Positions 2,640-42,197 of a stretch of DNA of 64,000 nucleotides are shown here, piece after piece. Both the position numbers and the translations under genes were made by a program. The DNA is from an uncultured Gammaproteobacteria bacterium (lineage in GTDB: Bacteria; Patescibacteriota; Patescibacteriia; Patescibacteriales; GWE2-39-37). Below the pieces are notes generated by a model that was not told the DNA's origin, ran no database searches, and saw only the letters and a list, made by a program, of their open reading frames with translations. How positions within the stretch are numbered: position 1 is the first letter of the stretch; every line of letters begins with the position of its first letter. Location: contig CAYUCS010000001.1 in assembly GCA_964443495.1 (NCBI GenBank), positions 341,496-405,495 of the forward strand, given 5' to 3'.

Positions 2640-2647
2640 AGGGGTTT

Positions 2648-2682
2648 GAAGAAAACAAAGGAGTGCAGGCTCGTGCACTCCT
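2648..2682 (-). terminator. Intra-cluster hairpin (terminator or attenuator) between the kinase gene and tmk-dut
   Basis: AGGAGTGCA / TGCACTCCT 9-bp stem (2659-2682), followed on the minus strand by TTGTTTTCTTC. Confidence 0.4.
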
Positions 2683-2703
2683 CCTTGTTAGATTGTTAAT
2701 CGG

Positions 2704-3252
2704 TTACCTCGAAATCAGCTGGTCCAATTGCCGGTAGAGCGCGGCCAAGTCGCCGTTATTGTCTATTTCCGCGTCAGCATGGCCCATGACCTCGGGAATG
2801 GTCAGTTCGGTCGGCAGTTCGTGGTCAGCTTGGAATTGCTCGTAGGTCTTGGTGGCGTCATCGGCGTTCTCATTGCGCTTGGTCAGGCGCTCCCATCTCG
2901 TCCGCGGTTCGGCGACAAGGCGGATAAGCTTGAAGTCAGGAATCTCTTTCAAGTGAGTGATATCCGGCATGCGCCTGATGCCTTCGACGACCACTATCTG
3001 GTGCTCATCGTTCTTTGCATCGTTGGCTATGACCTTGGCCATAAGGTCCTGGCCGAAAGCGGCTCGCATTATCTCGGAGAAAGTGACGATGTTTTCGCGC
3101 GTTTGCGGAATGTAAAAACGATCAAGGCCATCGCGCAGCATCGTTGAAAAACGATAAGTCGAAGCGCCGTATTTTTCTTCAAGATACTTGGCAGCCGTAC
3201 CTTTGCCCGAGGCGATCAGGCCGGTAAAGCCGATGATGATTTTTTGGCTCAT
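2704..3252 (-). CDS. Small P-loop nucleotide or nucleoside-monophosphate kinase (CoaE/dNMP-kinase-like)
   Basis: N-terminal IIIGFTGLIASGKGT Walker A; 182 aa; embedded in the dTTP cluster. Confidence 0.5.
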   Translation of the reverse strand: MSQKIIIGFTGLIASGKGTAAKYLEEKYGASTYRFSTMLRDGLDRFYIPQTRENIVTFSEIMRAAFGQDLMAKVIANDAKNDEHQIVVVEGIRRMPDITHLKEIPDFKLIRLVAEPRTRWERLTKRNENADDATKTYEQFQADHELPTELTIPEVMGHADAEIDNNGDLAALYRQLDQLISR

Positions 3253-3255
3253 AGT

Positions 3256-4032
3256 TTAAAGCGGTATGTCGGATTTTAGGATCTTGCCGATCGGAGTGAA
3301 ACTGGCGGCATATTTGGAAAGCGGCTTTTCAGCGGGTTTCTGGGCCGGTGAGGCAGGAGCCGCCGGTTCGGCCTTTGGAGCCGTCACGGCAACCGGCAGG
3401 TCGGCCGGAACAGCGGCAGGCTGGATTTCGCGGATCGGGGCGATCGTGACCGCGGTCGGGGCCGGTGCCGGGTCGGCAATGGCCGGGGTGCCTGATTGCT
3501 GGGTGATGATGGTCTCGGTCGGTTGCGGGGCGGTTGGCGCCATGTCAGCGTAGGTCTCCATGTCGGTCGAAAGTATTTTGTACTGCACGCCGGTTTCAGC
3601 GAAGATATCGGCGGTGCGTCCGGAGCCATGGTAATTCTTCTGGCAGACGACGCGTTTGATGCCGGCATTGATAATCATCTTGGCGCAGGTATAGCAGGGG
3701 GTCATCTTCTGGTAGATGGTCGCGCCGTCAAGCGAGATTCCCTCGCGCGCGGCCTGGCAGATGGCGTTCTGCTCGGCGTGGATAGTGCGGATGCAGTGGC
3801 GGCTCTGGTGGCCGTCAGCATGAGTGACGGTGTGCATCTCATGGCCGATCTCGTCGCAGTGGGCAATACCGGCTGGTGAGCCGACATAGCCAGTCGCGAT
3901 GATGCGCTTGTCCTTGACGATGACGCAACCGAGACGCCCGCGGTCGCAGGAACCGCGGCTGCCGACCATATCGGCGATGTTCAAGAAGTACTCATCCCAC
4001 GAGGGGCGGTGGTGAGGAGTCGGATTTTCCAT
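3256..4032 (-). CDS. dCMP deaminase with a long Pro/Ala-rich C-terminal tail
   Basis: HAEQNAI and PCYTCAKMI zinc-binding motifs of the cytidine/dCMP deaminase fold; the last ~110 aa are low-complexity P/A/T-rich. Confidence 0.8.
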   Translation of the reverse strand: MENPTPHHRPSWDEYFLNIADMVGSRGSCDRGRLGCVIVKDKRIIATGYVGSPAGIAHCDEIGHEMHTVTHADGHQSRHCIRTIHAEQNAICQAAREGISLDGATIYQKMTPCYTCAKMIINAGIKRVVCQKNYHGSGRTADIFAETGVQYKILSTDMETYADMAPTAPQPTETIITQQSGTPAIADPAPAPTAVTIAPIREIQPAAVPADLPVAVTAPKAEPAAPASPAQKPAEKPLSKYAASFTPIGKILKSDIPL

Positions 4033-4181
4033 AGAAAAAAATGTTTAACTTGACTAAACCCCCTTGTTTATTGCGTTTTTGTGTTTGTTTGTGGAAAAGT
4101 CCTTTTTAGCCCTTTTATTTTATCAGAGAGGTGAGTTAAAAGCAAACCCAGTTTTTGCGTCGGTAATGCTTTATTTTTAGC

Positions 4182-4218
4182 AAAAAAAACAGGGACGGCT
4201 GGGCCGTCCCTGTTTTTT
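4182..4218. terminator. Bidirectional rho-independent terminator
   Basis: CAGGGACGGC / GCCGTCCCTG 10-bp stem flanked by A8 and T6 runs. Confidence 0.7.
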
Positions 4219-4221
4219 AGA

Positions 4222-4977
4222 TTATTTCTGCTCTTGGGAGATGAATTTTTTCATGTCCGCTACCGAACTCATAAGTTGGGCAGGGAATATGATGGTCGAG
4301 TTTTTCTCGATCGAAATCTCAGCCATGGTCTGGAGGTTCCTGAGCTGCAAGGCGATCGGGTGGGCGGCGATGACATCGGCCGCTTCGCCCAATTTTTGCG
4401 AAGCCATCAGTTCGCCCTCGGCAGCGATGATCTTGGCGCGTTTTTCACGTTCGGCTTCGGCCTGCTTGGCCATGGCGCGCTGCATATTTTCCGGCAGCTC
4501 GATATCCTTGATTTCGACGACCGAGACGACTACGCCCCAGGGCTCGGTGTGGGTGTCGAGAACTTTCCTGATTTCGCCATTGATGACATCGCGTTCGGAT
4601 AGGATTTCATCGAGCTGGAAACGGCCGACGATGTTGCGGACCGTGGTTTGCGCGATCTGGTCGATGGCGCGCATCACGTTCTCGATGGCTACGATGCTTT
4701 TGATCGGGTCGATTACTTGGTAATAGGCGACGGCCGAGACATCAACCGAGACATTGTCTTTGGTGATGATCTTTTGCGGAGGAATCGGCAGAGTGATGGT
4801 GCGTAGGTCGATTTGCCGCATCCAGGAGATGTAGGGGATGATCCAAGTCAAGCCCGGCTCCTTGATGCCGGTAATTTTGCCCAAGAGGAAGACTACGCCT
4901 TTTTCATACTGCTGGACGACCCTGAAGCCGGGCAGTATCAAAAAGACAAACACGAGGAACAGGATTGTGTAGCCCAT
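4222..4977 (-). CDS. SPFH/Band-7 (stomatin-prohibitin-like) membrane protein
   Basis: N-terminal TM helix, then VVQQYEKGVVFLLGK...GLTWIIP...DNVSVDVSAVAYYQV and a C-terminal AEAEREKRAKII coiled coil. Confidence 0.8.
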   Translation of the reverse strand: MGYTILFLVFVFLILPGFRVVQQYEKGVVFLLGKITGIKEPGLTWIIPYISWMRQIDLRTITLPIPPQKIITKDNVSVDVSAVAYYQVIDPIKSIVAIENVMRAIDQIAQTTVRNIVGRFQLDEILSERDVINGEIRKVLDTHTEPWGVVVSVVEIKDIELPENMQRAMAKQAEAEREKRAKIIAAEGELMASQKLGEAADVIAAHPIALQLRNLQTMAEISIEKNSTIIFPAQLMSSVADMKKFISQEQK

Positions 4978-27574: not shown

Positions 27575-28048
27575 TTATTTTCTTTGGTCAACTAAACCCC
27601 CGATATACTTCGCTTTATAAATTTCATCTCCATCCGCGGACTTGATTATTTCCTCGCCAAAAAAATTATCGATTTCTCCTTCGTAAACATTGATATATTC
27701 AACGTCGTCAAGGTTGTATCGTTTTGGGCCACGAAATGGTTTATCCTCGGGAATCTGCGAAAGCGCACCCTGCAAGGTTTTGTAAACAGTCTGAACATCA
27801 GCAACGCCTTCAACCACCCAGCCATAATAAACCATCATGTAAACAGGTAAGCCTCGAAAAAATACAACCTCTCGTCCGCCATATGGTTCACCGCCAAAGT
27901 AATTATCATGATATTTCCAATCCCCATCTTCAAATATCAATGTTGTGGATTTGTCAGCTTCAACAATTTTTTTGGCAGAGTCACCAGCCGCATAAGTTGA
28001 TTTTTTAGCTTTAACCAGAAATTTACAAAGCTCGTTTTGGTCAAACAT
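27575..28048 (-). CDS. DUF5680-like protein of unknown function
   Basis: WKYHDNYFGGEPYGGREVVFFRGLPVYMMVYYGWV block as I remember it for DUF5680; AT-rich gene. Confidence 0.5.
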   Translation of the reverse strand: MFDQNELCKFLVKAKKSTYAAGDSAKKIVEADKSTTLIFEDGDWKYHDNYFGGEPYGGREVVFFRGLPVYMMVYYGWVVEGVADVQTVYKTLQGALSQIPEDKPFRGPKRYNLDDVEYINVYEGEIDNFFGEEIIKSADGDEIYKAKYIGGLVDQRK

Positions 28049-28310
28049 GATTTTAAATTACCACCTTAAAAATAAATTTTATTTCACTTAACGTTACTCA
28101 CATGCGAAGTTCGTTTGAAGCGTAGTGAAAACGAATTTGGGTGGAGGCTTTCGGAGAAAACCGTAACCGCATGTGAGTTGTTGTGCGATGTGAATATTTT
28201 TCTTTTGTTCGCCCTTAGACGAACGGCTCAAAAAAAGAATCTAATTTTGTTTTTCCGTCTTGGATTCAGGCCAGAGGGGTCAGGGGTGAATGGCCTGGAG
28301 CCAAGACTCC

Positions 28311-29561
28311 TTAAATTTTAAAAAAAATATCATTCAAATTATCCTCAGAAAAAGATGCATCATCTTTAATCCAAAACTTTATTGAATCTCGAAGAAATCC
28401 TTCTATCTTTATTATATCATCATTAGTTAATCCGTGTTTATTTCCATGCACTATTTTACTTCTGGTTGCATACATTTTTTTAATAAAATCAAATATTTCT
28501 TTTCTATGATCTTGATCTCCCAAAAGAAAAGCCACGCGCATTGATAATCTAAATGTTAATTCGTCATTTCCATTTGGTAAATATAGTGATTCAAGACCTA
28601 TCATATAGTCAATCAATTTATCTTCAATATTTCTTCGTTCCATGCCAAGACTCAATCTTCTCATGGCTATATTAAATCTAGTATCTTTTTCTTTCGTAAT
28701 GAACTGGTAAATATCAGAAAGTTCTTCAATTTCTGATTTTACAAGTACGCACTTTTCCCCTATAACTATATTTTCAAACCAGGAACCAATGGTTGTAATG
28801 CCGCCGTGAGGATGGAATGTTTCCATTTCTGAATTAATTCTATGATCCCTGTAAACTCCCGAAGATTTTAATATTCTAAGTGCGCTTATCACTCTATCAA
28901 AAATGTCACTTGATATGTTTAATTCATCCTCACCAGGAATAGCAAGTGGCTCTTCTGGCTCAGATGGCACTCCAGATTTAATAATTTTAGCGGTTTCATA
29001 CTTTCTTTGAATAATATATGATGATTTTGAAAAATTAGCATATCCTCCCTCAAAGTCATAATCAGGCTCTGATAAACTAACAACTTTAGTTTTTATTACA
29101 ATTCCGTCACTCAGATCAATCTCAGCCTCTTCATATTGAAAGTTGTACAGTGCGGTTGAGTCAATAAATTGCAGCTTTTCAGAATAAAATAACTCTTCAA
29201 AGCTCAAATATGCCTGATTGAATATGTCTAATGAAAATTCAGCATTTTTAAAATAAAAGCTTCTCAAGAAACTCAAAAGACACGATTCGGAATTTCCAGT
29301 GGTTGTAAAACCTCGGCAAGTTCCAACAAGATTGCCAAGTAAGCCGTTAATTTCTGGAGCAACTTTCATTATTTCCTCACATTCACTAAATTCTGGTATT
29401 TTTTTAATCTCATTATCAAAATTTATTAATAATCTAATTACATAATATTTTTCACTCATGCGTTGCGGATCTAACTTTAAATTCCGACCATAAAAAGAAA
29501 GTGCTGACTCAGTTAGCACTTGAAGGTTGATATACAATTCCTTGTTGTGTATTTGTTCCAT
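28311..29561 (-). CDS. HEPN-domain protein (C-terminal Rx4H RNase-type motif) with an unknown N-terminal region
   Basis: C-terminal helices RFNIAMRRLSLGMER, LIDYMIGLESLY, LTFRLSMRVAFLLG, KKMYATRSKIVHG (R367..H372, nt 28446-28463); very AT-rich. Confidence 0.6.
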   Translation of the reverse strand: MEQIHNKELYINLQVLTESALSFYGRNLKLDPQRMSEKYYVIRLLINFDNEIKKIPEFSECEEIMKVAPEINGLLGNLVGTCRGFTTTGNSESCLLSFLRSFYFKNAEFSLDIFNQAYLSFEELFYSEKLQFIDSTALYNFQYEEAEIDLSDGIVIKTKVVSLSEPDYDFEGGYANFSKSSYIIQRKYETAKIIKSGVPSEPEEPLAIPGEDELNISSDIFDRVISALRILKSSGVYRDHRINSEMETFHPHGGITTIGSWFENIVIGEKCVLVKSEIEELSDIYQFITKEKDTRFNIAMRRLSLGMERRNIEDKLIDYMIGLESLYLPNGNDELTFRLSMRVAFLLGDQDHRKEIFDFIKKMYATRSKIVHGNKHGLTNDDIIKIEGFLRDSIKFWIKDDASFSEDNLNDIFFKI

Positions 29562-29819
29562 ATTGAAAAATATTCAAATAAACTTTTTTTGCCTCTTTGT
29601 AGGCAAAAAAACACCTTATTACCCCTATATAAATAGATAAAAAAACAAAATTGAATTCTTTTTTGAGCCAGGGCGTAGCCCAAAAGGAAAACATGCATTT
29701 CGCACAACTCGTTATTATGCGAAATGTTTTCGCAAAACATGCTTAAATGTGTATGTTATACGAAATGTTTGATATAATTTTAGTGTTCGCTAACTTTAGA
29801 TTAATTATACCAATTGGCT

Positions 29820-30058
29820 ATGAAATTGGAAGAGTTATTGCGAAAAATTGAAAACGAGCTAAGGCTGAGAAATTTTAGCCGACGTACTATCAAAAGCTAT
29901 GTGGCTTGCCTCTCTGAGTATTTGAGGTGCGTCTAGGGGATAAATGCCGATAAGGGCGCTATGTACAAGAATCGTTAGGGCATGCTAATATCAGAACTGC
30001 TCAGATTTATACCAAAGTGACGAGTCCGATGCTGAAAAGCATCGCAAGCTCGTTGTGA
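29820..30058 (+). pseudogene. Tyrosine recombinase/integrase remnant (N- and C-terminal fragments, catalytic core deleted)
   Basis: 29820-29936 encodes MKLEELLRKIENELRLRNFSRRTIKSYVACLSEYLRCV*. 29975-30058 encodes LGHANIRTAQIYTKVTSPMLKSIASSL*. Confidence 0.7.
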
Positions 30059-33373: not shown

Positions 33374-33416
33374 TTTTCAATCACGCCCCGGCCAGTTCGG
33401 GGCTTTTTTGTCGGTA

Positions 33417-33425
33417 TGGTATAAT
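33417..33425 (+). promoter_or_regulatory. Extended -10 element TGGTATAAT
   Basis: TGnTATAAT immediately after a terminator hairpin (33384-33409), 27 nt before the start at 33453. Confidence 0.4.
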
Positions 33426-33452
33426 GGAACCAAGAAAAGTAATCAAATCATT

Positions 33453-36074
33453 ATGGCTAAAAAATCTGTCTGGCTCGGAGCGTTCTTGCTCGGTTTGTTC
33501 TTGGCGGTGCCGGATGCCATGGCGGCCAACATCTATGTAACGGCCGATGCGGGGTCGTCCGGCGGCAACGGTTCCAGCGCCAATCCTTATAATTCTATTG
33601 CCGCAGCTTTGGCGGCCGCGGCGCCTGGCGATGTCGTCAGGCTGCGTCCTGGCGTCTATGCCGGTCCGGTCTCATTCCCGCATGGCGGCACGGCCGGCAA
33701 TCCGATTACTCTTAGGTCGGACGGCGCTGCCAGGTCGGCCGTCATTGATTGCAATTGGCTGGCCAACACGAATTGCTTGACCGTCGATCGCAGCAACGTG
33801 GTAGTCGATGGGCTCGAGGTCAGGAATTCCCGGATTTACGGCATCAAGATCGATGGCGATGCCGACACGAACCAGCCGATCAACGGCAACGAATACGGTA
33901 ATTATAATGGCAATCGCAACGGCGATCCGAATCTGCGTCGCTATCGGGTCAACGGGGCCGATAATGTGGTGTTGAGGAATAATTACATCCACCACATCGT
34001 CTTTGACGGACTCAAGATCGGCCATGTCAACAACATCCTGATAGAGAATAACGAAGTGTATAAGACCGGCATGACTGATCCGATTTCAGGCGCGGCCAGC
34101 CAGCAGCAAGGCATCGACCTGGTCGGCGCTTACGGCGCGGTGATACGAGGCAACTATATCCACGATGACCTGGACAATCCGTCGATGGATATCGGCATGT
34201 TCGCCAAAGGCGGAAGCCAGGATGTGGTAATCGAAAACAACAAGGTGGAAAACATGGCCGACATGCAAGCGGCGATCGAGGTTGGCGGCGACACGGAGAC
34301 TTATAACACGCGCTATACGCCGTCGTCAGTCGATTCCCAGTTCCATGCTGATATGCTCACGGGCAGGGACCAGGCGACCGGCGTCGCCAGTTATCCGATG
34401 GATGACGCTGGCAGATACGTTGCTTCGCTCATGTCCGAGGCGCGCAATGTCGTCGTGCGCGGCAACGTCATCATCAATGCCAATCCGCCGCTGTCATTCC
34501 GCAATTCGTACAACGCTTCAGCATACAACAACACCATCATCAATTCCGGCTGGTCGCAGGGAATGCTCAAGATCTGGAACGACTGCAACTGCTCATTCAA
34601 CCTGCACAATAACGTCAATATCAGGAATTATAATAATATTTTCTATAACGCGGATGCCGCTATCATGAGCGGCGGTGCGCCCGGAGCGGCCATCTATCAG
34701 AAGAACGCCGGCAATATCGGCGGATACCAGGCGAATAACAATATTTATTACAACCAAGGCACTGGCGCCATATCCTTTGTCAGCGGCACGGACTCCGCTT
34801 CCTTGAGGAATGCCGACCCGCAGCTATCCGCAACGCAGGTTCTGGTGGCGGGCAGCCCGGCAATAGGGGCCGGTGCGGACTTGCGAGCCTTGGGCTTGCT
34901 CGGAGCTAGCGAGACTTGGATCGATCGCAACGGTATTGTCAGGCCGACCGCCGCCGAATTGGCCAGTGGCTATGACATCGGCGCCTTGTCCGTCGCGGCT
35001 GGCGCGGCTGCTCCAGCCGACACCGCGGCACCGACTACTCTTGCCAACCCGATCGGCGGCACGTTCGTCTCGCCGCAAAGCGTAAGCCTGTCGGCTAACG
35101 AGCCGGCCACGATATATTACACCATCGATGGTTCTGATCCTTCGGTCAATTCCGCGACGTATGCCTCGCCGATCGCGATTTCCTCATCCGCAGTGCTGAA
35201 ATTCTTTGCTCGAGATCCAGCTGGCAACAGGGAAGCTATCCGTACCCAGAGTTACGTGATTGCCGTTCCGCCCGCGCCTCCGACCGCCGGCACCACCTCT
35301 GTGCCTACGGCGCCTACGCAGCCGTCAGTTCCTAGCGCGCCGTCTGCTCCAAGCAGCCAGTGCACTTCTTGGGTTTACTCGACTTGGGGTTCTTGCGTAA
35401 ACGGGTTGCAGAGCAGGACAGTTGTCTCAGCTTTGCCCAATGGCTGCATCGGCGGCGTGCCTTCGTTGGCGCAAGCCTGTACGGTTTTGCCGCCCGCAAC
35501 TGCCAATACTTCAGCGGCGCCGGCTGCCGTGTCCGCCGCTGCGGCAATCAAGGACAGCGACGGCGACGGCTTGCACGATGAGCTCGAGGCGGCGCTGCTT
35601 ACCGACAAGCTGAAGCCGGACAGCGACGGCGACGGTTATCAGGATCGGTCCGAGCTGTTGTCGGGCAACGACCCGGAGAGGGCCAGCATCGCGTTGCCCA
35701 TCAATACCGCTTTCAGCTCGAAACAAGCCGGAAGGATCTTGCTGCAGGTAGAGAACAAAGGGCAGGCCTGGTATATCAATCCTGTGGATTCAAGCAGATA
35801 TTATCTCGGCCGACCGGCCGATGCTTTCGCGGTGATGCGCAAGCTCGGCTTGGGCGCCAAGCACGCGGTAATCACCAAGGGCTCGTTTTCTTCTCGGCTG
35901 GCCGGCCGCATCTTGATCGACGTCGAGGATAAGGGGAAGGCTTATTATATCGACCCCAAGACGTTGAAGGCCCTTTTTCTCGGCCGACCGGCCGATGCTT
36001 TCGCGGTGATGAGGGCCAAGGGGCTGGGAATCAGCAATGCTGATCTGAAAAAGATCAAAGTCGGCGGCATTTAA
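33453..36074 (+). CDS. Large secreted right-handed beta-helix (pectate-lyase-fold) surface protein with Ca-binding repeats and twin C-terminal domains
   Basis: Signal peptide MAKKSVWLGAFLLGLFLAVPDAMA; repeated NN-x-I/V beta-helix rungs; P/T linker; DSDGDGLHDELE and DSDGDGYQDRSE; two copies of the GRIL..VE.KG.AYYI.P....LGRPADAFAVMR module. Confidence 0.7.
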   Translation: MAKKSVWLGAFLLGLFLAVPDAMAANIYVTADAGSSGGNGSSANPYNSIAAALAAAAPGDVVRLRPGVYAGPVSFPHGGTAGNPITLRSDGAARSAVIDCNWLANTNCLTVDRSNVVVDGLEVRNSRIYGIKIDGDADTNQPINGNEYGNYNGNRNGDPNLRRYRVNGADNVVLRNNYIHHIVFDGLKIGHVNNILIENNEVYKTGMTDPISGAASQQQGIDLVGAYGAVIRGNYIHDDLDNPSMDIGMFAKGGSQDVVIENNKVENMADMQAAIEVGGDTETYNTRYTPSSVDSQFHADMLTGRDQATGVASYPMDDAGRYVASLMSEARNVVVRGNVIINANPPLSFRNSYNASAYNNTIINSGWSQGMLKIWNDCNCSFNLHNNVNIRNYNNIFYNADAAIMSGGAPGAAIYQKNAGNIGGYQANNNIYYNQGTGAISFVSGTDSASLRNADPQLSATQVLVAGSPAIGAGADLRALGLLGASETWIDRNGIVRPTAAELASGYDIGALSVAAGAAAPADTAAPTTLANPIGGTFVSPQSVSLSANEPATIYYTIDGSDPSVNSATYASPIAISSSAVLKFFARDPAGNREAIRTQSYVIAVPPAPPTAGTTSVPTAPTQPSVPSAPSAPSSQCTSWVYSTWGSCVNGLQSRTVVSALPNGCIGGVPSLAQACTVLPPATANTSAAPAAVSAAAAIKDSDGDGLHDELEAALLTDKLKPDSDGDGYQDRSELLSGNDPERASIALPINTAFSSKQAGRILLQVENKGQAWYINPVDSSRYYLGRPADAFAVMRKLGLGAKHAVITKGSFSSRLAGRILIDVEDKGKAYYIDPKTLKALFLGRPADAFAVMRAKGLGISNADLKKIKVGGI
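35804..35837 (+). repeat. 34-nt exact intragenic direct repeat, copy 1
   Basis: TCTCGGCCGACCGGCCGATGCTTTCGCGGTGATG, identical to 35978-36011. Confidence 0.9.
35978..36011 (+). repeat. 34-nt exact intragenic direct repeat, copy 2
   Basis: Identical to 35804-35837; the flanking DNA of the two protein modules is diverged. Confidence 0.9.
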
Positions 36075-36116
36075 GGCTCGGGCGGAGGAATATGTTTTGT
36101 CCGGTTGGATAATTTG

Positions 36117-36125
36117 TGTTATAAT
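36117..36125 (+). promoter_or_regulatory. Extended -10 element TGTTATAAT
   Basis: TGnTATAAT 34 nt upstream of the start at 36160. Confidence 0.4.
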
Positions 36126-36159: not shown

Positions 36160-36639
36160 ATGGACATCCGTTCAACCGACGCAATCCGCCCCGAGCAGCC
36201 GCCGCAACCTGAGCGGCCGCAAGGCTTTACGCCCGAAAGGCCGGTCATGGTGGAGCAGCGGCCTGAAGCGCCGAAGCCGGTTGAGCGTGCCGGCGAGGAA
36301 GATTTTCCGCCTTCGGCCGCCGCGCAACAAGATGGCGACCTGGTGATCGCTCCGGCCTCGCCCGAAGTCCAGCAGATTGAGAAGATCATGGAAGATGGCC
36401 TGGCCGAGTTCTACGCCCAGATGCCGCCGGACAAGCAGCGCGAGTTCCGCCGGGTCGGCGAACAGACTGCCCGGCAGATCAGCCAGCTCCTGACCGCTAC
36501 TAAAGTGCAAATCGGCAAAATCATCAGCCTGATCAAAGATTGGCTCAAGATCCTGCCCGGCGTCAACCGTTTCTTCATCGAACAGGAGGCTAAGATAAAA
36601 ACTGACGAGCTTTTGCGCATGCGTCAGCCCAAACCATGA
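36160..36639 (+). CDS. Hypothetical Pro/Glu/Arg-rich protein coupled to the T4CP-like ATPase
   Basis: 159 aa; N-terminal ERP/PEx low complexity; C-terminal amphipathic helix; ATGA overlap with the downstream gene. Confidence 0.55.
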   Translation: MDIRSTDAIRPEQPPQPERPQGFTPERPVMVEQRPEAPKPVERAGEEDFPPSAAAQQDGDLVIAPASPEVQQIEKIMEDGLAEFYAQMPPDKQREFRRVGEQTARQISQLLTATKVQIGKIISLIKDWLKILPGVNRFFIEQEAKIKTDELLRMRQPKP

Positions 36640-39149
36640 ACTACGGACTCGAACAACCGGTGAGCCAGCCGCTGGATCCGACCGCTTTTGTCGATCTGGC
36701 GCTCGTTTATATTTTCGGCGCCCTGGTCGCCTTGTTTTTGCTGCTGGTGATCGCCAAGAAATTGATTACCCACTTCGCCAAAGGCAGCCACTACTTCGAC
36801 CACGTCATCTACCTGGTGCGCTTGTCCAAGGAAAAGCCGACCGACAAGGATAATAACCTGACGGTGCAGCAGCTCCGCGAAGAGATTGCTCGCGGCGAGA
36901 CCTTGTTTTCCTCCATCGGCGGCTTGCGCGCCGAGCGCGGCATCAGGCCGTGGCTTTATGGCCGCCGCGATCATTTTTCCTTCGAGATCGTGGCCAGTAA
37001 GAAAGTGATCGCTTTTTATCTGGTGTCGCCGCGGCCGATGGCCCGCTATCTCGAACAGCAAGTCCAAGCCCACTATCCGGAGGCCGTGGTCGAGGAGGTG
37101 CGCGATTACAATATCTTCACGCCGCAGAGCGTCATCGATTTCGGCTGGCTCAAGACCCGGCGCAGCTTCATCTTCCCGATTCGCACTTACAACAAGATGG
37201 AAACCGATCCGTTGAATTCCATCATCAACGTCTTGTCGAAGCTTGGCGAGAACGAATCTTTGGTCATCCAATACGTCGTGCGCAGCGCCAAAGGGATATG
37301 GCACTCGAAGGCCAGCCGCGTCTTCTCCAAAGTACGGCAGGGAAAGCCGTTGCACGAAGCCCTGAATAGCTCGCCCTGGGCCGAATTTTTCAGCTATTTC
37401 AAAGGCACGAGCCCTGAGGACAAACAGAAGCAGCAACAGCAGCAGACGATGCAGCGCACCAATGCCATGGATGAGGCGATTCTTAAGAATCTGGAAGAGA
37501 AGAATTCCAAGGCCGGCCTCGACGTCAACCTGCGCGTCATCGTCAGCACTGGCAGTGCCGAGCAGTCGCGCGGATACCTGGCTAACATTATCGGCGCTTT
37601 CTCCCAGTACAATCTTTACGAATACGGCAACTCTTTCAATAACAAGGTCAATTCTTTCATCAAAGGCTGGCGGCACAAGAAGTTCATGAAGGATTATATC
37701 TATCGCCGCTTCGACGACAAGCTGAGCTTCCTTTTGAATACCGAGGAGCTGGCCAGCCTGTTCCATCTGCCGCTCCGCTGGACCGAGACGCCGAACATCC
37801 TCTGGCTGACAGCTAAGCACGCCCCGGCTCCGACCGAAATCCCCAACGAAGGCATCATCCTCGGGCGCAATATCTATCGCGGCGTCGTGCGCGACGTGCG
37901 CATCAAGCGTGAGGATCGCCGCCGCCACACCTATATCGTCGGTAAGTCGGGTGTTGGCAAATCGGTGCTCTTGGCCTCGATGGCCATCCAAGACATCCTC
38001 AACGGCGAAGGTGTGGGCGTGATTGATCCGCATGGTGATTTGATCGATGACATCTTGAAGCGGATTCCGCCGGAACGCGCCGAGGATGTCATCCTGTTTT
38101 CGCCGGCCGACATCGAGCGGCCGCTGGCCCTGAACCTGATGGAATTCGACCCGCGTTATCCCGAGCAGAAGTCGTTCGTCATCAATGAGATGATCAAGAT
38201 TTTCGACAAGCTGTATGATCTCAAATCGACCGGCGGTCCGATTTTCGAGCAGTATATGCGCAACGCCATGCTATTGGTCATGGCCGACCCCGAGAGCGGT
38301 TCGACCTTGATGGAAATACCGAAAGTCCTGGCCGATGCGGAATTCCGCAAAATGAAGCTTGCTCGCTGTTCCGACCCGACGGTCGTCGATTTCTGGCGCA
38401 AAGAAGCGGAGAAGGCTGGCGGCGACGCGGCTCTGGCCAATGTCGTGCCCTATATCACCTCCAAGCTCACCTCTTTCATTTCCAATGATATGATGAGGCC
38501 GATCATCGGCCAGCAGAAGAGCTCGTTCAACTTGCGCGACCTGATGGATCGGCAGAAGATCCTCTTGGTCAGCCTGCCCAAGGGCCAGGTCGGCGAGCTT
38601 AACGCCTACCTGCTCGGCATGATCCTGGTGGGCAAGGTCCTGGTCGCCGCGCTGTCCCGCACCGACATGGCGAAAGAGCAGCGCAAGGATTTTTATCTTT
38701 ATATCGACGAGTTCCAGAATTTCACTACCGATTCTATCTGTTCCATCTTGTCCGAGGCCCGCAAATACAACCTGAACCTGGTCATGGCGCACCAATATCT
38801 CGGCCAACTGGTCAAAGGCCAGGACTCTTCGATCAAGAACGCGGTTTTCGGCAACGTCGGCACCTGGGTCTCGTTCAAGGTCGGTTCGGAGGACGCCGAA
38901 GAGCTTTCCAAGGAGTTCGCGCCGGTCTTCAACCAATATGACCTGATAAATGTTGAGAAATATTCCGCCTACATCAAGCTTCTGATCGACAACTCCGCTT
39001 CCAGGGCTTTCTCTATGGCCACGACCTGGCCGTTGCCCGGCCTCAAGCGCGATGACCTGGCAATGAGGATCAAGAGCTTGTCACGCCTGAAGTACGGCCA
39101 GGACCGCAATATTATCGAGGAAGAAATCAGGCGCCGGGTCAATATCTGA
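36636..39149 (+). CDS. VirD4/TraD/TrwB-like coupling-protein-type P-loop ATPase (FtsK/HerA superfamily), membrane anchored
   Basis: N-terminal TM helix; IVGKSGVGKS Walker A; GVIDPHGDL; FYLYIDEFQNF Walker B; ARKYNLNLVMAHQYLGQL. Confidence 0.65.
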   Translation: MNYGLEQPVSQPLDPTAFVDLALVYIFGALVALFLLLVIAKKLITHFAKGSHYFDHVIYLVRLSKEKPTDKDNNLTVQQLREEIARGETLFSSIGGLRAERGIRPWLYGRRDHFSFEIVASKKVIAFYLVSPRPMARYLEQQVQAHYPEAVVEEVRDYNIFTPQSVIDFGWLKTRRSFIFPIRTYNKMETDPLNSIINVLSKLGENESLVIQYVVRSAKGIWHSKASRVFSKVRQGKPLHEALNSSPWAEFFSYFKGTSPEDKQKQQQQQTMQRTNAMDEAILKNLEEKNSKAGLDVNLRVIVSTGSAEQSRGYLANIIGAFSQYNLYEYGNSFNNKVNSFIKGWRHKKFMKDYIYRRFDDKLSFLLNTEELASLFHLPLRWTETPNILWLTAKHAPAPTEIPNEGIILGRNIYRGVVRDVRIKREDRRRHTYIVGKSGVGKSVLLASMAIQDILNGEGVGVIDPHGDLIDDILKRIPPERAEDVILFSPADIERPLALNLMEFDPRYPEQKSFVINEMIKIFDKLYDLKSTGGPIFEQYMRNAMLLVMADPESGSTLMEIPKVLADAEFRKMKLARCSDPTVVDFWRKEAEKAGGDAALANVVPYITSKLTSFISNDMMRPIIGQQKSSFNLRDLMDRQKILLVSLPKGQVGELNAYLLGMILVGKVLVAALSRTDMAKEQRKDFYLYIDEFQNFTTDSICSILSEARKYNLNLVMAHQYLGQLVKGQDSSIKNAVFGNVGTWVSFKVGSEDAEELSKEFAPVFNQYDLINVEKYSAYIKLLIDNSASRAFSMATTWPLPGLKRDDLAMRIKSLSRLKYGQDRNIIEEEIRRRVNI

Positions 39150-39176
39150 CCGCATCTTTGCCCGAAGCTATAAATT

Positions 39177-39185
39177 TGTTATAAT
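39177..39185 (+). promoter_or_regulatory. Extended -10 element TGTTATAAT
   Basis: TGnTATAAT 28 nt upstream of the response-regulator start. Confidence 0.4.
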
Positions 39186-39213
39186 ATAGCAACAAAACTA
39201 AATCGAAAAAAAT

Positions 39214-39660
39214 ATGAAAAGAAGCAAGAAGGTCATTGTCTTGGCTGACGACGACAAATGGCTGGTTGACCTTTACGGCGAAAAATTACGCCTGGAAGGC
39301 TACGAAGTCCACACCGCGCACAACGGTAAAGACGGTTTCGATTTGGTTTTGGAGAGCATGCCCGACCTGGTGCTATCCGACGTAGTCATGGCGGGAGGCG
39401 ATGGTTTTTATCTTTTGAAGAAGATCAAGGGCACCGAACAGACCAAGAATATCCCGGTTATCAGCCTGACCAACCTTTCTAATGAGCAGGACAAAAAGGC
39501 GCTTTACGATATCGGCACGGCCGATTATCTGGTCAAGGCCGATTTTACGCCGAGCCAGGTCGTCGAACGCATCGCCAAGGTGCTGGAAAATGACGGCTCC
39601 CGGTCAGCCAAGCCTGCCGTAACCTTGATGAAGAAGACCAAGATAGCGGCTAAGATCTAG
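39214..39660 (+). CDS. Stand-alone response-regulator receiver domain (CheY-like)
   Basis: LADDD acidic pocket, DLVLSDVVM phospho-acceptor Asp, ISLTN, DYLVKA Lys; no output domain. Confidence 0.8.
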   Translation: MKRSKKVIVLADDDKWLVDLYGEKLRLEGYEVHTAHNGKDGFDLVLESMPDLVLSDVVMAGGDGFYLLKKIKGTEQTKNIPVISLTNLSNEQDKKALYDIGTADYLVKADFTPSQVVERIAKVLENDGSRSAKPAVTLMKKTKIAAKI

Positions 39661-39749
39661 CCGCTTTTATTTTCGGCGGCCATAGCCGAGGTTTACAAAA
39701 AAAATAAAATTCGCTAACATAACAAAACCTAAAAATAAAAGCAAAAACT

Positions 39750-40382
39750 ATGGACATGCAGAATGCTGACGGACAAGAAACCTTGGACGTGACCGAGGAA
39801 CTTACGCAGATGGGCGCAGCGACCCCGGCGCCGGCGGAAGAGAGCCAGCTGACCTTGAATCAGAACAAGGTCGATATCATCCGCAAGCTCCTTTCGAATA
39901 TCAAGGAATCAAGCGAACAGCTTTTGAAGCTCATGGATAACGGGTCGGTTTCCGCTGACCAACTGGATCTTCTGGCTTCGACCATCCGTACCACTACCCA
40001 GGAAGCGGAGGAGGGCAATGTGATCGAGGGCGTCTTCGATGGCGTCAACATGATCGGTCCTGACGGCCATGAGTATCACGTTTCGGCCAATTATGCCTCC
40101 AAGTCCAAATTGGTCGAGGGCGATCGGCTCAAGCTGGTCATCGCCAAGAACGGCGCCTTCCTCTATAAGCAGATCGGCCCGATCGAACGGAGCCGTTTAG
40201 TCGGCCAATTGCGCCGGGTAGGGGAGAATGACTTTTTGGCTGTCGTCGATGGCAAGACCTGGCGTCTGCTCAATGCCAGCATCACCTATTTCAAGGGCGA
40301 TGACGGCGACGAGGTAGTTATCCTGGTGCCGAAAGACGGGGAGTCCCGCTGGGCAGCCGTGGAAAATATCATCAAGAAATAA
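39750..40382 (+). CDS. Hypothetical protein
   Basis: 210 aa; acidic N-terminus and beta-rich C-terminal half; terminator follows. Confidence 0.55.
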   Translation: MDMQNADGQETLDVTEELTQMGAATPAPAEESQLTLNQNKVDIIRKLLSNIKESSEQLLKLMDNGSVSADQLDLLASTIRTTTQEAEEGNVIEGVFDGVNMIGPDGHEYHVSANYASKSKLVEGDRLKLVIAKNGAFLYKQIGPIERSRLVGQLRRVGENDFLAVVDGKTWRLLNASITYFKGDDGDEVVILVPKDGESRWAAVENIIKK

Positions 40383-40583: not shown

Positions 40584-42197
40584 ATGGCAACCCTATATCG
40601 TAAATACAGGCCGCAGAATTTTGCCGAGGTGGTGGGCCAGAACCATATCAAGGTTATCATGCAACACGAGCTGGTCGCCGACAAGCTCGCCCACGCCTAT
40701 CTTTTTTGCGGTCCGCGTGCCGTCGGCAAGACGACCTTGGCCCGGGTATTGGCCAAGGCGGCCAATTGCCTCAATCGCAAGCCGGAGAGCTATGAGCCGT
40801 GCGGCGTATGCGATGCCTGCGTCGATATCAGCGCCGGGCGTAGCTTCGACGTGATCGAGATCGATGCCGCTAGCCATACCGGCGTCGATAACGTCAGGGA
40901 AAACATCATCGCCAGCGCGCGCGTCGCTCCGTCCAAGCTGAAGCGCAAGGTCTTCATCATCGACGAGGTCCACATGCTTTCGACCGCCGCCTTCAACGCG
41001 CTTCTGAAAACTTTGGAAGAGCCGCCGGAATTCGTGCTGTTCGTGCTGTGCACGACCGAAGTCCACAAGGTTCCGGCCACCATCATCTCGCGCTGCCAGC
41101 GTTTCGATTTCAAGCGCATCAGCCTTAGCGAGGTCGTGCGCAAGCTCACCCATATCGTCAATCAGGAAGACATCAAAGTCGAGAAGAATATTTTGGAATC
41201 GGTCGCCCGCCATGCCGACGGCCACATGCGCGACGCGGAAAGCCTCTTGGGCCAGCTGGTCAATCTGGGCGGCAAGGAAATCTCGCAAGCCGATGCCGAC
41301 CTGGTCATTCCGAGGAGCGACTTGGGCGAGGTGGCCAGCCTGATCGAGATACTGTCCAACAAGGACGCGGCCGCCGGCATCCGCCTGGTCAACAAGCTCT
41401 TGGACGAGGGTGTCGATATCAAGGTATTCATGGGCGATGTCATCGAGATGCTGCGCAAGCTGATGCTCATGAAGATCAATCCGGCCTTGTCCGATTGGCT
41501 CGGACTCGAGCTCGGCGAAGCGCTCGAGATGCGCCTGAGCCAGATCAGCAAGAATCTCTCTCAGGAACAGCTTTTGGCTTTCTTGGAGCAGAGCATCAAG
41601 GCCTCAGGCGAGTTGAAATCGAGCTTCATCGTCCAGCTGCCCCTCGAGCTGATGATCGCCAGGATCTGTACGGCTCCTGCCCAGCCGATGATGGCGCCAG
41701 CGCCCGTGGCTGGCAATGCCGCGCCTGCCGCCAAACCGGCTGCCGCGGCAGCCGCCGTGACTGAGGGTTCGGCGCCCAAGTCTGAAGTTATCAGTTCGGG
41801 CAATTTGGACTATGAATTGATTTTGTCTAAGTGGAACGAGTTCCTGGTCAGGATCAAGACATACAACCATTCATTATCATTCATCCTGAAGGTCTGCCAG
41901 CCGAAGAGCCTGAATGGCAACGAGCTGTGCCTGGCGTTCAAATATAAATTCCACAAGGATCGCATCATGGATCCGACTATCAAGACCTTGTTGGAGCGGG
42001 TATTGAAAGAAACCTATTCGACCAGCCTGACGATCGAGGCGGTCATCGACGAGCAGCTCGAGGTGACTGCCGGTGAGAGCGCGCCGAAGGCCGAAACGCC
42101 CGTCGGCGCTCCGGCAGCCGAAGCCCCGGCCAAGCCGGAAAACGATAAGATGATCGACAACCTGCTCAAGGCCTTCGGCGGCAAGGTCGTCGGCTAA
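40584..42197 (+). CDS. dnaX: DNA polymerase III subunit gamma/tau
   Basis: YRKYRPQNFAEVVGQ, GPRAVGKTT, zinc module CGVCDAC, IIDEVHML, SRCQRF. Confidence 0.95.
   Translation: MATLYRKYRPQNFAEVVGQNHIKVIMQHELVADKLAHAYLFCGPRAVGKTTLARVLAKAANCLNRKPESYEPCGVCDACVDISAGRSFDVIEIDAASHTGVDNVRENIIASARVAPSKLKRKVFIIDEVHMLSTAAFNALLKTLEEPPEFVLFVLCTTEVHKVPATIISRCQRFDFKRISLSEVVRKLTHIVNQEDIKVEKNILESVARHADGHMRDAESLLGQLVNLGGKEISQADADLVIPRSDLGEVASLIEILSNKDAAAGIRLVNKLLDEGVDIKVFMGDVIEMLRKLMLMKINPALSDWLGLELGEALEMRLSQISKNLSQEQLLAFLEQSIKASGELKSSFIVQLPLELMIARICTAPAQPMMAPAPVAGNAAPAAKPAAAAAAVTEGSAPKSEVISSGNLDYELILSKWNEFLVRIKTYNHSLSFILKVCQPKSLNGNELCLAFKYKFHKDRIMDPTIKTLLERVLKETYSTSLTIEAVIDEQLEVTAGESAPKAETPVGAPAAEAPAKPENDKMIDNLLKAFGGKVVG

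What the first reader, a model, noticed from the sequence alone, without database searches (positions are those of the whole stretch)
36160..40382. Orphan VirD4/TraD-like coupling ATPase operon with no secretion or relaxase partners in view
The 837-aa protein (36636-39149) has an N-terminal TM anchor, an approximately 400-aa uncharacterised domain, and an FtsK/HerA-type motor of the T4SS coupling-protein kind (GKSGVGKS, GVIDPHGDL, YIDEFQNF, AHQYLGQL). It is translationally coupled (ATGA) to a 159-aa Pro/Glu/Arg-rich protein. A stand-alone receiver domain follows (Asp in DLVLSDVVM, no output domain, no kinase in the window), then a 210-aa unknown. Each of these has its own TGTTATAAT element. 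No VirB4, relaxase, pilin or mobile-element genes are nearby, so the motor probably serves a different, chromosomally fixed translocation function (DNA or protein uptake or export).
Basis: partly seen in the sequence, partly recalled or inferred. Interest (0 to 1): 0.55.

Follow-up and report, generated by a model that had tools for sequence, protein, structure and literature searches.

The report
Core Patescibacteria coupling-protein-like ATPase operon
This is the chromosomal copy of a very widespread and highly conserved membrane ATPase of the ultrasmall Patescibacteria; its counterpart is essential in the one species tested, its motor resembles the "coupling" motors of type IV secretion systems, and it probably powers transport for a secretion machine encoded elsewhere in the genome rather than being a true orphan.

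Summary
The ORFs, motifs and ATGA overlap are real. The window is a Patescibacteria (Falkowbacteria-like) chromosome.

The 837-aa protein has one TM helix, a ~350-aa DUF8128 domain (PF26449) and a TrwB/VirD4-type motor. It belongs to a huge family (5,556 clusters at 50% identity with E ≤ 1e-30; at least 576 species genomes). It is more conserved than the adjacent DnaX in 66 of 66 loci.

The conserved module is small upstream partner → ATPase → (210-aa OB-fold-like protein in about half of loci) → DnaX. The receiver gene is a lineage-specific insertion with its own promoter-like and terminator-like sites.

I find two paralogous types. Type A (this gene) has a small upstream partner. Type B follows a Sigma70_r4/HARE-HTH gene. 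Synteny identifies Southlakia SEML1_0141/0142 as type A, and both are essential by published Tn-seq. Type B (SEML1_0293) is dispensable.

A full-length homolog in Bacillus phage G sits beside VirB6-like and VirB4-like genes.

"Orphan" T4CP homologues in Patescibacteria were already reported in 2025, and about 80% of those genomes carry VirB4 elsewhere.

Most likely role: the coupling or energising ATPase of the phylum's chromosomal, non-conjugative T4SS. This is inferred, not shown.

The parts
36097..36125 (+). Promoter-like site (TTGTCC-17-TATAAT with the TG extension, TGTTATAAT) in front of the 159-aa/837-aa gene pair
   Evidence: TGTTATAAT occurs 5 times in the window against 0.18 expected.
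36160..36639 (+). p159: small soluble partner protein. It has a variable Pro/Glu-rich N-terminus and a conserved ~85-aa helical C-terminal region. Its stop overlaps the ATPase start (ATGA).
   Evidence: A homolog lies immediately upstream of the ATPase in 57 of 72 assessable loci. Conservation pattern of 63 family members. No TM segment. No Pfam, NCBIfam, PHROG or PADLOC hit.
36636..39149 (+). Type-A DUF8128 + T4CP-type ATPase, 837 aa
36672..36755 (+). Single N-terminal transmembrane helix (about aa 13-40)
   Evidence: Kyte-Doolittle scan. AF2 helix 15-49. Basic residues (KK..H..K) follow the helix in the sequence, so the rest of the protein is inferred to be cytoplasmic.
36801..37835 (+). DUF8128 domain (about aa 56-400), an alpha/beta fold. 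E117, P181, K289, H377 and P379 are invariant. It ends in the conserved motif LNTEELASLFHxP.
   Evidence: PF26449 is precomputed for homologs, including the 95%-identical P0001. There is no hit in the local Pfam copy. Invariant columns. Secondary structure.
37848..39035 (+). TrwB/VirD4-type P-loop motor (about aa 405-800). Walker A is at 436-443 and Walker B (DEFQ) at 691-694. An all-helical insertion lies at about aa 510-615.
   Evidence: Pfam and NCBIfam hits. PDB sequence hits TrwB 1.7e-8 and DotL 1.2e-6. Foldseek hits TrwB, Cagbeta and DotL with target-normalised TM 0.47-0.57.
39158..39185 (+). Promoter-like site (TTGCCC-16-TATAAT, TGTTATAAT) of the receiver gene
39214..39660 (+). Stand-alone response-regulator receiver. 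It is a lineage-specific insertion and not part of the conserved module.
   Evidence: PF00072, E = 1e-19. It is near the ATPase in only 1 of 55 assessable loci.
39645..39665 (+). Terminator-like hairpin with a T-run at the end of the receiver gene
39750..40382 (+). p210: conserved downstream partner. It has an acidic disordered N-terminus, a conserved helix (aa 38-83) and a highly conserved beta-rich C-domain (aa 90-210) that resembles tandem OB/S1/cold-shock barrels.
   Evidence: 48-55% identical to the gene in the same position in L001 and L003. It lies between the ATPase and DnaX in 33 of 65 loci. At least 7,958 homologs, with no Pfam annotation. AF2 model. Foldseek: best E about 1e-3, so the fold assignment is tentative.
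40584..42197 (+). dnaX (DNA polymerase III gamma/tau). It is a conserved downstream neighbour. It is listed for synteny only and has no shown functional link.
   Evidence: Pfam. Same strand within 3.2 kb downstream in 62 of 65 loci.

Best explanation
The 837-aa protein is the 'type A' member of a Patescibacteria-wide, vertically inherited family. Its layout is one TM helix, a DUF8128 domain and a VirD4/TrwB-type motor.

The proposed mechanism below is inferred, not shown.
- The protein is anchored in the cytoplasmic membrane by its single helix.
- It probably forms a ring-shaped ATPase, as its relatives TrwB, VirB4 and HerA do.
- It uses ATP to recruit and feed a macromolecular substrate to the phylum's chromosomal, relaxase-less, pilus-bearing T4SS, which is encoded elsewhere in the genome. 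In other words, it is the 'missing' coupling or energising ATPase of that essential machine.
- The translationally coupled small protein p159 is most likely a stoichiometric adaptor or regulator. This would be analogous to CagZ with Cagbeta, or DotM/N with DotL; that comparison rests on my general knowledge of those systems.
- In this lineage, the OB-fold-like p210 is an accessory that may hold a nucleic-acid or protein substrate.
- The receiver gene is an unrelated insertion.

Shown here: family membership, domain layout, conservation, synteny, the A/B paralogy, and orthology to an essential Southlakia gene.

Inferred: ring formation, the link to the T4SS, the roles of the partners, and the substrate.
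For: 1. The motor is T4CP-type by sequence. It passes the Pfam gathering scores for T4SS-DNA_transf, TrwB_AAD_bind and TraG-D_C. Of 54 diverse relatives, 53 hit TrwB_AAD_bind and 52 hit TraG-D_C. The best PDB sequence hits are TrwB and DotL. Foldseek matches TrwB, Cagbeta and DotL.
2. Phage G gp156 is a full-length homolog (hhalign E = 4e-58 over 707 columns). It is encoded directly after a TrbL/VirB6-like gene (gp153), a small gene (gp154) and a VirB4-like ATPase (gp155).
3. The type-A ortholog and its small upstream gene are essential in Southlakia. SEML1_0142 is scored ES/ES/ES and SEML1_0141 GD/ES/ES. Orthology rests on the shared gene order L20-L35-IF3-YifB ... small ORF - ATPase in L087 and L088.
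4. The Southlakia T4SS cluster is also essential, and it was reported to lack a recognisable coupling protein.
5. VirB4 occurs in 2,417 and T4CP homologues in 2,918 of 3,035 Patescibacteria genomes. They are usually unlinked.
6. Conservation is at housekeeping level. Median identity is 65.6% against 52.0% for DnaX, and the ATPase is the more conserved of the two in 66 of 66 loci.
Against: - No T4SS gene lies within +-10 kb in the window or in 80 related loci.
- The conserved linkage is instead to DnaX (ABY1/Parcubacteria-type loci) or GyrB-GyrA (Saccharibacteria).
- The N-terminal architecture, one TM helix plus DUF8128, is unlike the usual T4CP layout of a short multi-helix N-terminal anchor leading straight into the motor (that layout is from my general knowledge).
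- The protein falls far below every NCBIfam T4CP cut-off.
- In the survey, T4CP homologues are found in about 500 more genomes than VirB4. MAG incompleteness and the existence of two paralogs confound this figure.
- The second non-patescibacterial homolog (L090) has no T4SS neighbours.
- Co-essentiality in Southlakia is only a correlation.
- Whether this window's own genome has VirB4 could not be tested.
Confidence: 0.45

Rival explanations
1. A T4SS-independent housekeeping motor acting on the cell's own DNA. It would be a membrane-anchored translocase tied to replication, topology or segregation, working alongside the replisome or gyrase.
For: - Same-strand linkage to dnaX in 62 of 65 loci, often abutting or overlapping it.
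- GyrB-GyrA lies directly downstream in Saccharibacteria.
- The ortholog is essential.
- The protein is more conserved than DnaX.
- The partner is OB-fold-like.
- No T4SS gene is nearby.
Against: - Southlakia keeps a canonical, essential FtsK with 4TM, alpha, motor and gamma domains, so this is not an FtsK replacement.
- The linked housekeeping gene differs between classes, and neither is adjacent in Southlakia itself. The linkage may therefore be frozen gene order rather than function.
- The phage G homolog sits in a T4SS-like cluster.
- The motor is T4CP-type, not FtsK-type. FtsK_SpoIIIE hits are weak and seen in only 9 of 54 members.
Confidence: 0.22
2. An import motor for host-derived nucleic acid (RNA or DNA). 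The ATPase, helped by the OB-fold-like p210, would pull polynucleotides into the cell, with or without the T4SS/pilus conduit. This would supply nucleotides that the cell cannot synthesise.
For: - Most Patescibacteria lack de novo nucleotide synthesis. A cultivated member takes up host RNA by an unresolved route.
- The ortholog is essential.
- T4CP motors are translocases.
- p210 resembles tandem S1/cold-shock/OB modules of RNA-binding proteins.
- In ABY1 the T4SS loci co-localise with comF, recG and radA.
- The 2025 review speculates that the T4SS/pilus is an uptake conduit.
Against: - There is no direct evidence.
- The p210 fold match is weak (best E about 1e-3). p210 is absent from about half of the type-A loci and from the Saccharibacteria loci.
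- A comEC deletion does not affect Southlakia viability, so the ComEC route is not the essential one.
- Import by a VirD4-type motor is unprecedented (my general knowledge).
Confidence: 0.13
3. A VirB4-like assembly ATPase rather than a coupling protein. In this reading DUF8128 corresponds to the VirB4 N-terminal domain, and the protein is a divergent second VirB4-type subunit.
For: - The top Foldseek hits are full-length TrwK/VirB4 (E = 5e-11 to 5e-9, about 870-950 aligned columns), ranked ahead of the T4CPs.
- NCBIfam VirB4 models align co-linearly: query 680-792 to model positions 633-745 of 792.
- The overall size and the N-domain-plus-motor layout match VirB4.
Against: - TM-scores are only about 0.3, so only one domain superposes.
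- No member hits the Pfam VirB4 family, and the N-domain has no PDB sequence hit.
- Sequence profiles favour TrwB and DotL.
- Patescibacteria already have a distinct VirB4 clade.
Confidence: 0.1
4. A decayed remnant of an integrated conjugative element, that is, a truly orphaned T4CP left behind after the element was lost.
For: There is T4CP homology without neighbouring T4SS or relaxase genes.
Against: - The reading frame is intact and the catalytic motifs are invariant.
- At least 576 species genomes carry close relatives.
- Synteny is fixed.
- Conservation exceeds that of DnaX.
- The ortholog is essential.
- GC content is native, at about 0.52-0.56.
- No integrase or transposase is nearby.
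Confidence: 0.02

Closest known systems
VirD4/TrwB/TraD type IV coupling proteins (T4CP)
   Same: Both have a P-loop motor with Walker A and B motifs and a helical insertion. The window protein passes the Pfam gathering scores for T4SS-DNA_transf, TrwB_AAD_bind and TraG-D_C. TrwB and DotL are its best PDB sequence hits. Both are membrane-anchored at the N-terminus.
   Different: The window protein has one TM helix and a ~350-aa DUF8128 domain in front of the motor, instead of a short multi-helix anchor (the T4CP layout is from my general knowledge). It falls far below all NCBIfam T4CP cut-offs. No relaxase or T4SS genes are linked to it. It is chromosomal, vertically inherited, and essential in Southlakia, rather than plasmid- or ICE-borne and accessory.
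Patescibacteria 'T4CP homologues' of Quinonero-Coronel et al. 2025 (PMC12102498), and Southlakia SEML1_0142 and SEML1_0293 (Wang et al. 2023, PMC10633639)
   Same: This window's gene is one of these. That paper counted 5,713 homologues in 2,918 genomes, nearly all away from virB4, and suggested exaptation. NCBI gives close relatives the same product names.
   Different: In the passages I read, the papers treat the homologues as one set and cite a non-essential t4cp homologue in Southlakia. Here they resolve into two paralogs. Type A (the window's gene, SEML1_0142) is essential and has a small upstream partner. Type B (SEML1_0293) is dispensable and is paired with a Sigma70_r4/HARE-HTH gene.
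VirB4 (TrwK of R388; PrgJ of pCF10)
   Same: Similar length and the same two-part layout of N-domain plus C-terminal motor. VirB4 gives the best Foldseek E-values.
   Different: There is no sequence-profile similarity to the VirB4 family in the N-domain. TM-scores are low. The motor is closer to T4CPs.
Bacillus phage G gp156 (phrog_5156, function unknown)
   Same: It is a full-length homolog that includes DUF8128.
   Different: It shares only about 23% identity. It has an internal rather than an N-terminal hydrophobic segment. It is encoded in a phage T4SS-like cluster next to VirB6-like and VirB4-like genes.
FtsK/SpoIIIE and HerA translocases
   Same: They belong to the same ATPase superfamily. 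There are weak Pfam, PDB and Foldseek matches to HerA, and in a minority of family members to FtsK_SpoIIIE.
   Different: The window protein has no FtsK alpha or gamma domains and no 4TM region. A canonical FtsK coexists with the family in Southlakia. It has no HerA HAS-barrel and no NurA partner.

Membership tests
T4CP (VirD4/TrwB/TraD) | TrwB-type P-loop nucleotide-binding domain with Walker A and B motifs | tested here: met
   Pfam scores are above the gathering cut-offs. TrwB scores 1.7e-8 and DotL 1.2e-6 in PDB sequence searches. Foldseek against TrwB gives a target-normalised TM of 0.56-0.57. The motifs are invariant.
T4CP (VirD4/TrwB/TraD) | All-alpha domain inserted into the nucleotide-binding domain | tested here: inconclusive
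   The AF2 model shows seven helices at aa 510-615, between Walker A and Walker B. Confidence there is moderate, and no domain-level superposition on the TrwB all-alpha domain was possible.
T4CP (VirD4/TrwB/TraD) | Short N-terminal multi-helix membrane anchor leading directly into the motor | tested here: not met
   There is a single TM helix (aa 13-40) followed by a ~350-aa DUF8128 domain.
T4CP (VirD4/TrwB/TraD) | Reaches the curated cut-off of a named T4CP family (NCBIfam) | tested here: not met
   The best scores are SXT_TraD 49 bits against a cut-off of 366, and CD1115 VirD4-like 35 bits against 250.
T4CP (VirD4/TrwB/TraD) | Encoded with, or working with, a relaxase and a mating-pair-formation T4SS | tested here: not met
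   None is present in the window or within +-10 kb in 80 loci (probe sensitivity is limited). The rest of the source genome could not be examined.
T4CP (VirD4/TrwB/TraD) | Forms a hexamer and couples a substrate to the secretion channel | not testable with these tools
   This needs biochemistry, cryo-EM or multimer modelling.
DUF8128 (PF26449) family | Match to PF26449 in the N-terminal region | tested here: met
   PF26449 is precomputed for all 120 listed homologs, including the 95%-identical P0001, and for L001 and L003. The model is absent from the local Pfam copy, so the window protein itself was not scored directly.
VirB4 | VirB4 N-terminal domain (Pfam CagE_TrbE_VirB) plus the VirB4-clade motor | tested here: not met
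   No VirB4 Pfam hit appears in 54 members or in the N-domain alone at E <= 10. hhalign against PrgJ matches only the Walker A motif. The structural resemblance is unresolved.
FtsK/SpoIIIE | FtsK alpha, beta and gamma domains and a 4TM anchor | tested here: not met
   FtsK_SpoIIIE hits are weak and found in only 9 of 54 members. There are no FtsK alpha or gamma domain hits. A canonical FtsK coexists with the family in Southlakia.
Response regulator receiver (the 148-aa gene) | PF00072 fold with the acidic pocket, acceptor Asp, Thr/Ser and Lys | tested here: met
   PF00072 scores 71 bits against a cut-off of 30. The residues were read directly from the sequence. There is no output domain.

The most novel reading that the evidence does not exclude
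The essential type-A ATPase is the energising motor of a feeding apparatus. In some lineages an OB-fold partner assists it. A T4SS-type machine would run as an importer, pulling host nucleic acid (RNA or DNA) or other macromolecules into the patescibacterial cell. This would explain both the essentiality of the T4SS and the unresolved route of host-RNA uptake.
Probability: 0.12. Interest if true: 0.85.

Novelty: new variant of a known kind. Interest (0 to 1): 0.45.

Why it matters
Patescibacteria make up a large share of bacterial diversity, yet the molecular basis of their host dependence is mostly unknown.

The Southlakia T4SS is described as the first T4SS shown to be essential for the survival of the bacterium that carries it (PMC12857230), and that T4SS was reported to lack a recognisable coupling protein (PMC10633639). 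The analysis here suggests the missing ATPase may be this unlinked, highly conserved DUF8128 protein.

It also shows that the 'non-essential t4cp' cited for Southlakia is a different paralog. If that is right, it names a concrete and genetically tractable target, SEML1_0141/0142. Studying it could reveal what these cells move across their envelope and in which direction.

For the scan itself, the finding is a typical member of an already annotated family, not a one-off oddity.

Tried and rejected
- **FtsK replacement: rejected.** Southlakia has a canonical, essential FtsK.
- **C-terminal fusions in 1,200-2,000-aa relatives.** I examined these for functional clues. They are only Pro/Ala-rich low-complexity tails with no Pfam domains.
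- **pCF10 PrgJ, PcfC and other T4SS proteins as phmmer probes on the loci.** There were no hits at all, not even PcfC against the family itself. The probe is uninformative.
- **hhalign of the shallow profile A1 against PrgJ and PcfC.** Only motif-level matches were found, so it could not discriminate VirB4 from VirD4.
- **R388 (BR000038).** The record is not in the plasmid collection.
- **p159 against DUF4012 and against the Saccharibacteria upstream ORFs.** BLASTP, hhalign and hmmsearch found no similarity. I treat those ORFs as positional analogues only.
- **The 888-aa upstream protein against DUF4012.** They are unrelated.
- **p210 sequence profile against PDB.** Nothing was found.
- **L090 (Brevibacillus phage record).** I checked it as a second T4SS association. 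It is only a tail, baseplate and lysis module.
- **Organism names for distant representatives.** Cluster look-ups were mostly unnamed.
- **Defence-system reading.** There is only a weak mads_8/HerA motor-level PADLOC hit and no defence context.

Full report
**Observation**

All four ORFs exist at the stated coordinates on the + strand. The 159-aa gene's TGA stop overlaps the ATG start of the 837-aa gene (CC-ATGA-AC at 36636-39).

The quoted motifs are present. Their core residues are invariant across 54 relatives that share only 30-70% identity (G436, K442, D464, G467, D691, E692, Q720, Q724).

The 148-aa protein is a receiver domain (PF00072, E = 1e-19).

TGTTATAAT is enriched in the window: 5 copies against 0.18 expected. 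In this region it occurs only before the 159-aa gene and before the receiver, and not before the 210-aa gene. The receiver has its own promoter-like site (39158-39185) and a terminator-like hairpin at its stop codon (39645-39665).

**What the window is**

The surrounding genes are housekeeping genes of a small genome. They include ThyX, ribosomal proteins L1 and L11, NusG, a ClpB-like ATPase, MraY, RecR, DnaB, CysRS, DnaX, GyrB, RodA/FtsW, RF1 and EF-Ts.

The closest homologs are from Candidatus Falkowbacteria and the Parcubacteria group (95% identity for P0001). GC content across the region is native, at 0.52-0.56. No integrase, transposase, relaxase, VirB4 or pilin is present.

**The ATPase**

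Pfam places aa 406-760 in T4SS-DNA_transf, TrwB_AAD_bind, TraG-D_C and DUF87. All four scores are above the gathering cut-offs. NCBIfam gives only sub-threshold hits to TraD, VirD4 and VirB4 models.

Precomputed annotation assigns the N-terminal ~350 aa of all listed homologs to PF26449, named DUF8128. That model is missing from the local Pfam copy, and no paper in the library mentions it.

An AF2 model (mean pLDDT 73) shows these parts:
- a TM helix at aa 15-49;
- an alpha/beta N-domain at aa 56-400;
- a motor with an all-helical insertion at about aa 510-615.

Foldseek ranks full-length VirB4/TrwK first (E about 5e-11, about 900 aligned columns) but with TM-scores of only about 0.3. TrwB, Cagbeta and DotL align over 460-510 columns with target-normalised TM of 0.47-0.57. 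TdpAB and HerA follow.

Sequence profiles favour T4CPs. TrwB scores 1.7e-8 and DotL 1.2e-6 against PDB sequences. No VirB4 Pfam hit appears in 54 members. So the motor is of the coupling-protein kind. Whether DUF8128 is related to the VirB4 N-domain remains open.

**Family size and conservation**

More than 3,331 homologs were scored in the word-indexed search, and the top 120 are 65-95% identical over the full length. The exhaustive search finds 21,685 clusters at 50% identity with E <= 1e-3, and 5,556 with E <= 1e-30. Many of these match across both domains.

At least 576 species-representative genomes encode a close relative. Across 66 loci that carry both genes, the ATPase is always more conserved than DnaX (median identity 65.6% against 52.0%).

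**Conserved neighbourhood**

I analysed 82 non-redundant loci:

| Neighbour | Position relative to the ATPase | Frequency |
|---|---|---|
| p159 homolog | immediately upstream | 57 of 72 |
| DUF4012 protein | in p159's place | 9 of 72 |
| DnaX | same strand, within 3.2 kb downstream | 62 of 65 |
| p210 homolog | between the ATPase and DnaX | 33 of 65 |
| Receiver | nearby | 1 of 55 |

The conserved module is therefore p159 - ATPase - (p210) - DnaX. The receiver is an insertion.

p159 has a variable Pro/Glu-rich N-terminus and a conserved ~85-aa helical C-terminal region. It has no TM segment.

p210 belongs to a family of at least 7,958 proteins with no Pfam annotation. Some GenBank records mislabel members as ribosomal protein L7/L12. 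Its confident C-domain weakly resembles tandem OB/S1/cold-shock barrels such as those of RNase II/R, S1, Unr and Rho. The best E-value is about 1e-3, so the fold assignment is tentative.

**Two paralogs and essentiality**

Locus L055 carries a second copy about 7 kb upstream of its type-A gene. That copy is split into a DUF8128 ORF and a motor ORF with a C-terminal treble-clef zinc finger. A Sigma70_r4 + HARE-HTH gene lies directly upstream of it. The two types are about 44% identical in the motor and about 33% overall. Of the top 150 representatives, 118 fall with type A and 24 with type B.

The supplementary tables of Wang et al. 2023 list two such genes in Ca. Southlakia epibionticum:
- SEML1_0293 (921 aa) is non-essential and is preceded by SEML1_0294, a Sigma70_r4/HARE-HTH gene. 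This is type B.
- SEML1_0142 (1,019 aa) is scored ES/ES/ES and is preceded by SEML1_0141 (139 aa), scored GD/ES/ES.

Saccharibacteria type-A loci L087 and L088 show the order L20-L35-IF3-YifB ... small ORF - ATPase. This matches SEML1_0135-0138 ... 0141-0142. SEML1_0142 is therefore the type-A ortholog, and it is essential.

The Saccharibacteria small upstream ORFs share position and general build with p159, but no detectable sequence similarity.

**Literature context**

Quinonero-Coronel et al. 2025 reported 5,713 VirD4-like homologues in 2,918 of 3,035 Patescibacteria genomes. Only 148 lie near virB4. VirB4 occurs in 2,417 genomes, and relaxases are rare. They suggested exaptation and cited a non-essential homologue in Southlakia. 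By my analysis that homologue is type B.

Wang et al. found the Southlakia T4SS cluster essential and noted that it lacks a recognisable coupling protein.

A late-2025 review notes that a comEC deletion does not affect viability. It also speculates that the T4SS/pilus is a conduit for uptake from the host.

A 2026 preprint shows host-RNA uptake by a cultivated member through an unresolved route.

**Outside the phylum**

phrog_5156 matches nearly the full length of the protein (E = 7e-79).

Bacillus phage G gp156 is a full-length homolog (hhalign E = 4e-58). It is encoded right after a TrbL/VirB6-like gene (gp153), a small gene (gp154) and a VirB4-like ATPase (gp155).

A second homolog, in a Brevibacillus phage record, has only tail and lysis neighbours.

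**Interpretation**

The best-supported reading (confidence about 0.45) is that the type-A protein is the unlinked coupling or energising ATPase of the phylum's chromosomal, non-conjugative T4SS. In that reading p159 is a translationally coupled adaptor or regulator, and p210 is a lineage-restricted accessory.

Rival readings:
- a T4SS-independent DNA-transaction motor, suggested by the DnaX and GyrBA linkage but weakened by the coexisting FtsK (about 0.22);
- a nucleic-acid import motor (about 0.13);
- a VirB4-like assembly ATPase (about 0.10);
- a decayed remnant of a mobile element (about 0.02).

'Orphan' describes the local context only. That local separation from the T4SS is the known norm in this phylum.

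**Verdict**

The feature is real. It is a typical member of an already annotated but functionally uncharacterised family. It is a variant of the T4CP kind, with a distinct N-domain and essential status.

The added value here is threefold: the A/B paralog split, the link from type A to an essential Southlakia gene pair, and the phage G T4SS-like context. Interest is moderate (0.45).

Noticed in passing
L055:280-4672 (type-B copy), with the type-A copy at L055:9959-12454: A second, paralogous DUF8128 + motor gene. It is split into two ORFs that overlap by 4 nt (1488-3050 and 3047-4672). It has a C-terminal treble-clef zinc finger and no detectable TM helix. A Sigma70_r4 + HARE-HTH gene lies directly upstream. 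The same pairing occurs in Southlakia (SEML1_0294/0293). Whether the split is real or an assembly frameshift is unknown.
   Followed up: partly
L089:3818-9382 (Bacillus phage G gp153-gp156): The jumbo phage G carries a compact T4SS-like cluster: TrbL/VirB6-like gp153, small gp154, VirB4-like gp155 and the DUF8128 + motor gp156. I found no paper in the library that discusses it.
   Followed up: partly
Literature: PMC12102498 against the supplementary tables of PMC10633639: The statement that the Southlakia t4cp homologue is non-essential fits SEML1_0293 (type B). The type-A homologue SEML1_0142 and its upstream gene SEML1_0141 are scored essential in the same Tn-seq table, and this appears to have gone unremarked.
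   Followed up: yes
window 28001-30000, including the 416-aa ORF at 28311-29561 (-): A sharp low-GC island (0.33, against about 0.50-0.58 in the other 2-kb bins) contains a 416-aa ORF of unknown function. It is probably foreign DNA inserted into the chromosome.
   Followed up: no
P0270-P0299 (type-A relatives of 1,045-2,006 aa): Some type-A proteins carry C-terminal Pro/Ala/Gly-rich low-complexity tails of 450-1,200 aa. The tails contain a recurring short motif, PPPIGAPPV[DE]L. They have no Pfam domain.
   Followed up: partly
L001:7251-9956, L003:7180-9948 and 7 other loci: In 9 of 72 loci a ~900-aa DUF4012 protein occupies the position immediately upstream of the ATPase, and no p159 homolog is present. 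DUF4012 has no p159-like region. Its relation to the system is unknown.
   Followed up: partly
window 39750-40382 and its homologs (for example P0131, P0140, P0194): Members of the p210 family are annotated as '50S ribosomal protein L7/L12' in some GenBank Parcubacteria records. This looks like an annotation error caused by the acidic, Ala/Glu-rich N-terminus.
   Followed up: no
window 7504, 24875(-), 36117, 39177, 59881(-): The extended -10 element TGTTATAAT occurs 5 times against 0.18 expected by chance. This suggests a strong lineage-typical promoter consensus.
   Followed up: partly
window 33408-36074 (+): The 888-aa upstream gene encodes a secreted or surface protein with a right-handed beta-helix, CHB_HEX_C/Fn3-associated domains, Pro/Ala-rich linkers and TSP3-like repeats. 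It is unrelated to the DUF4012 neighbour seen in other loci. Similar proteins occur near the ATPase in a few loci (L017, L027, L054).
   Followed up: partly
A3 member scan: One of 54 diverse family members carries a Pfam T4SS_pilin hit (E = 1.8e-5). This may be a fusion with a pilin-like segment.
   Followed up: no
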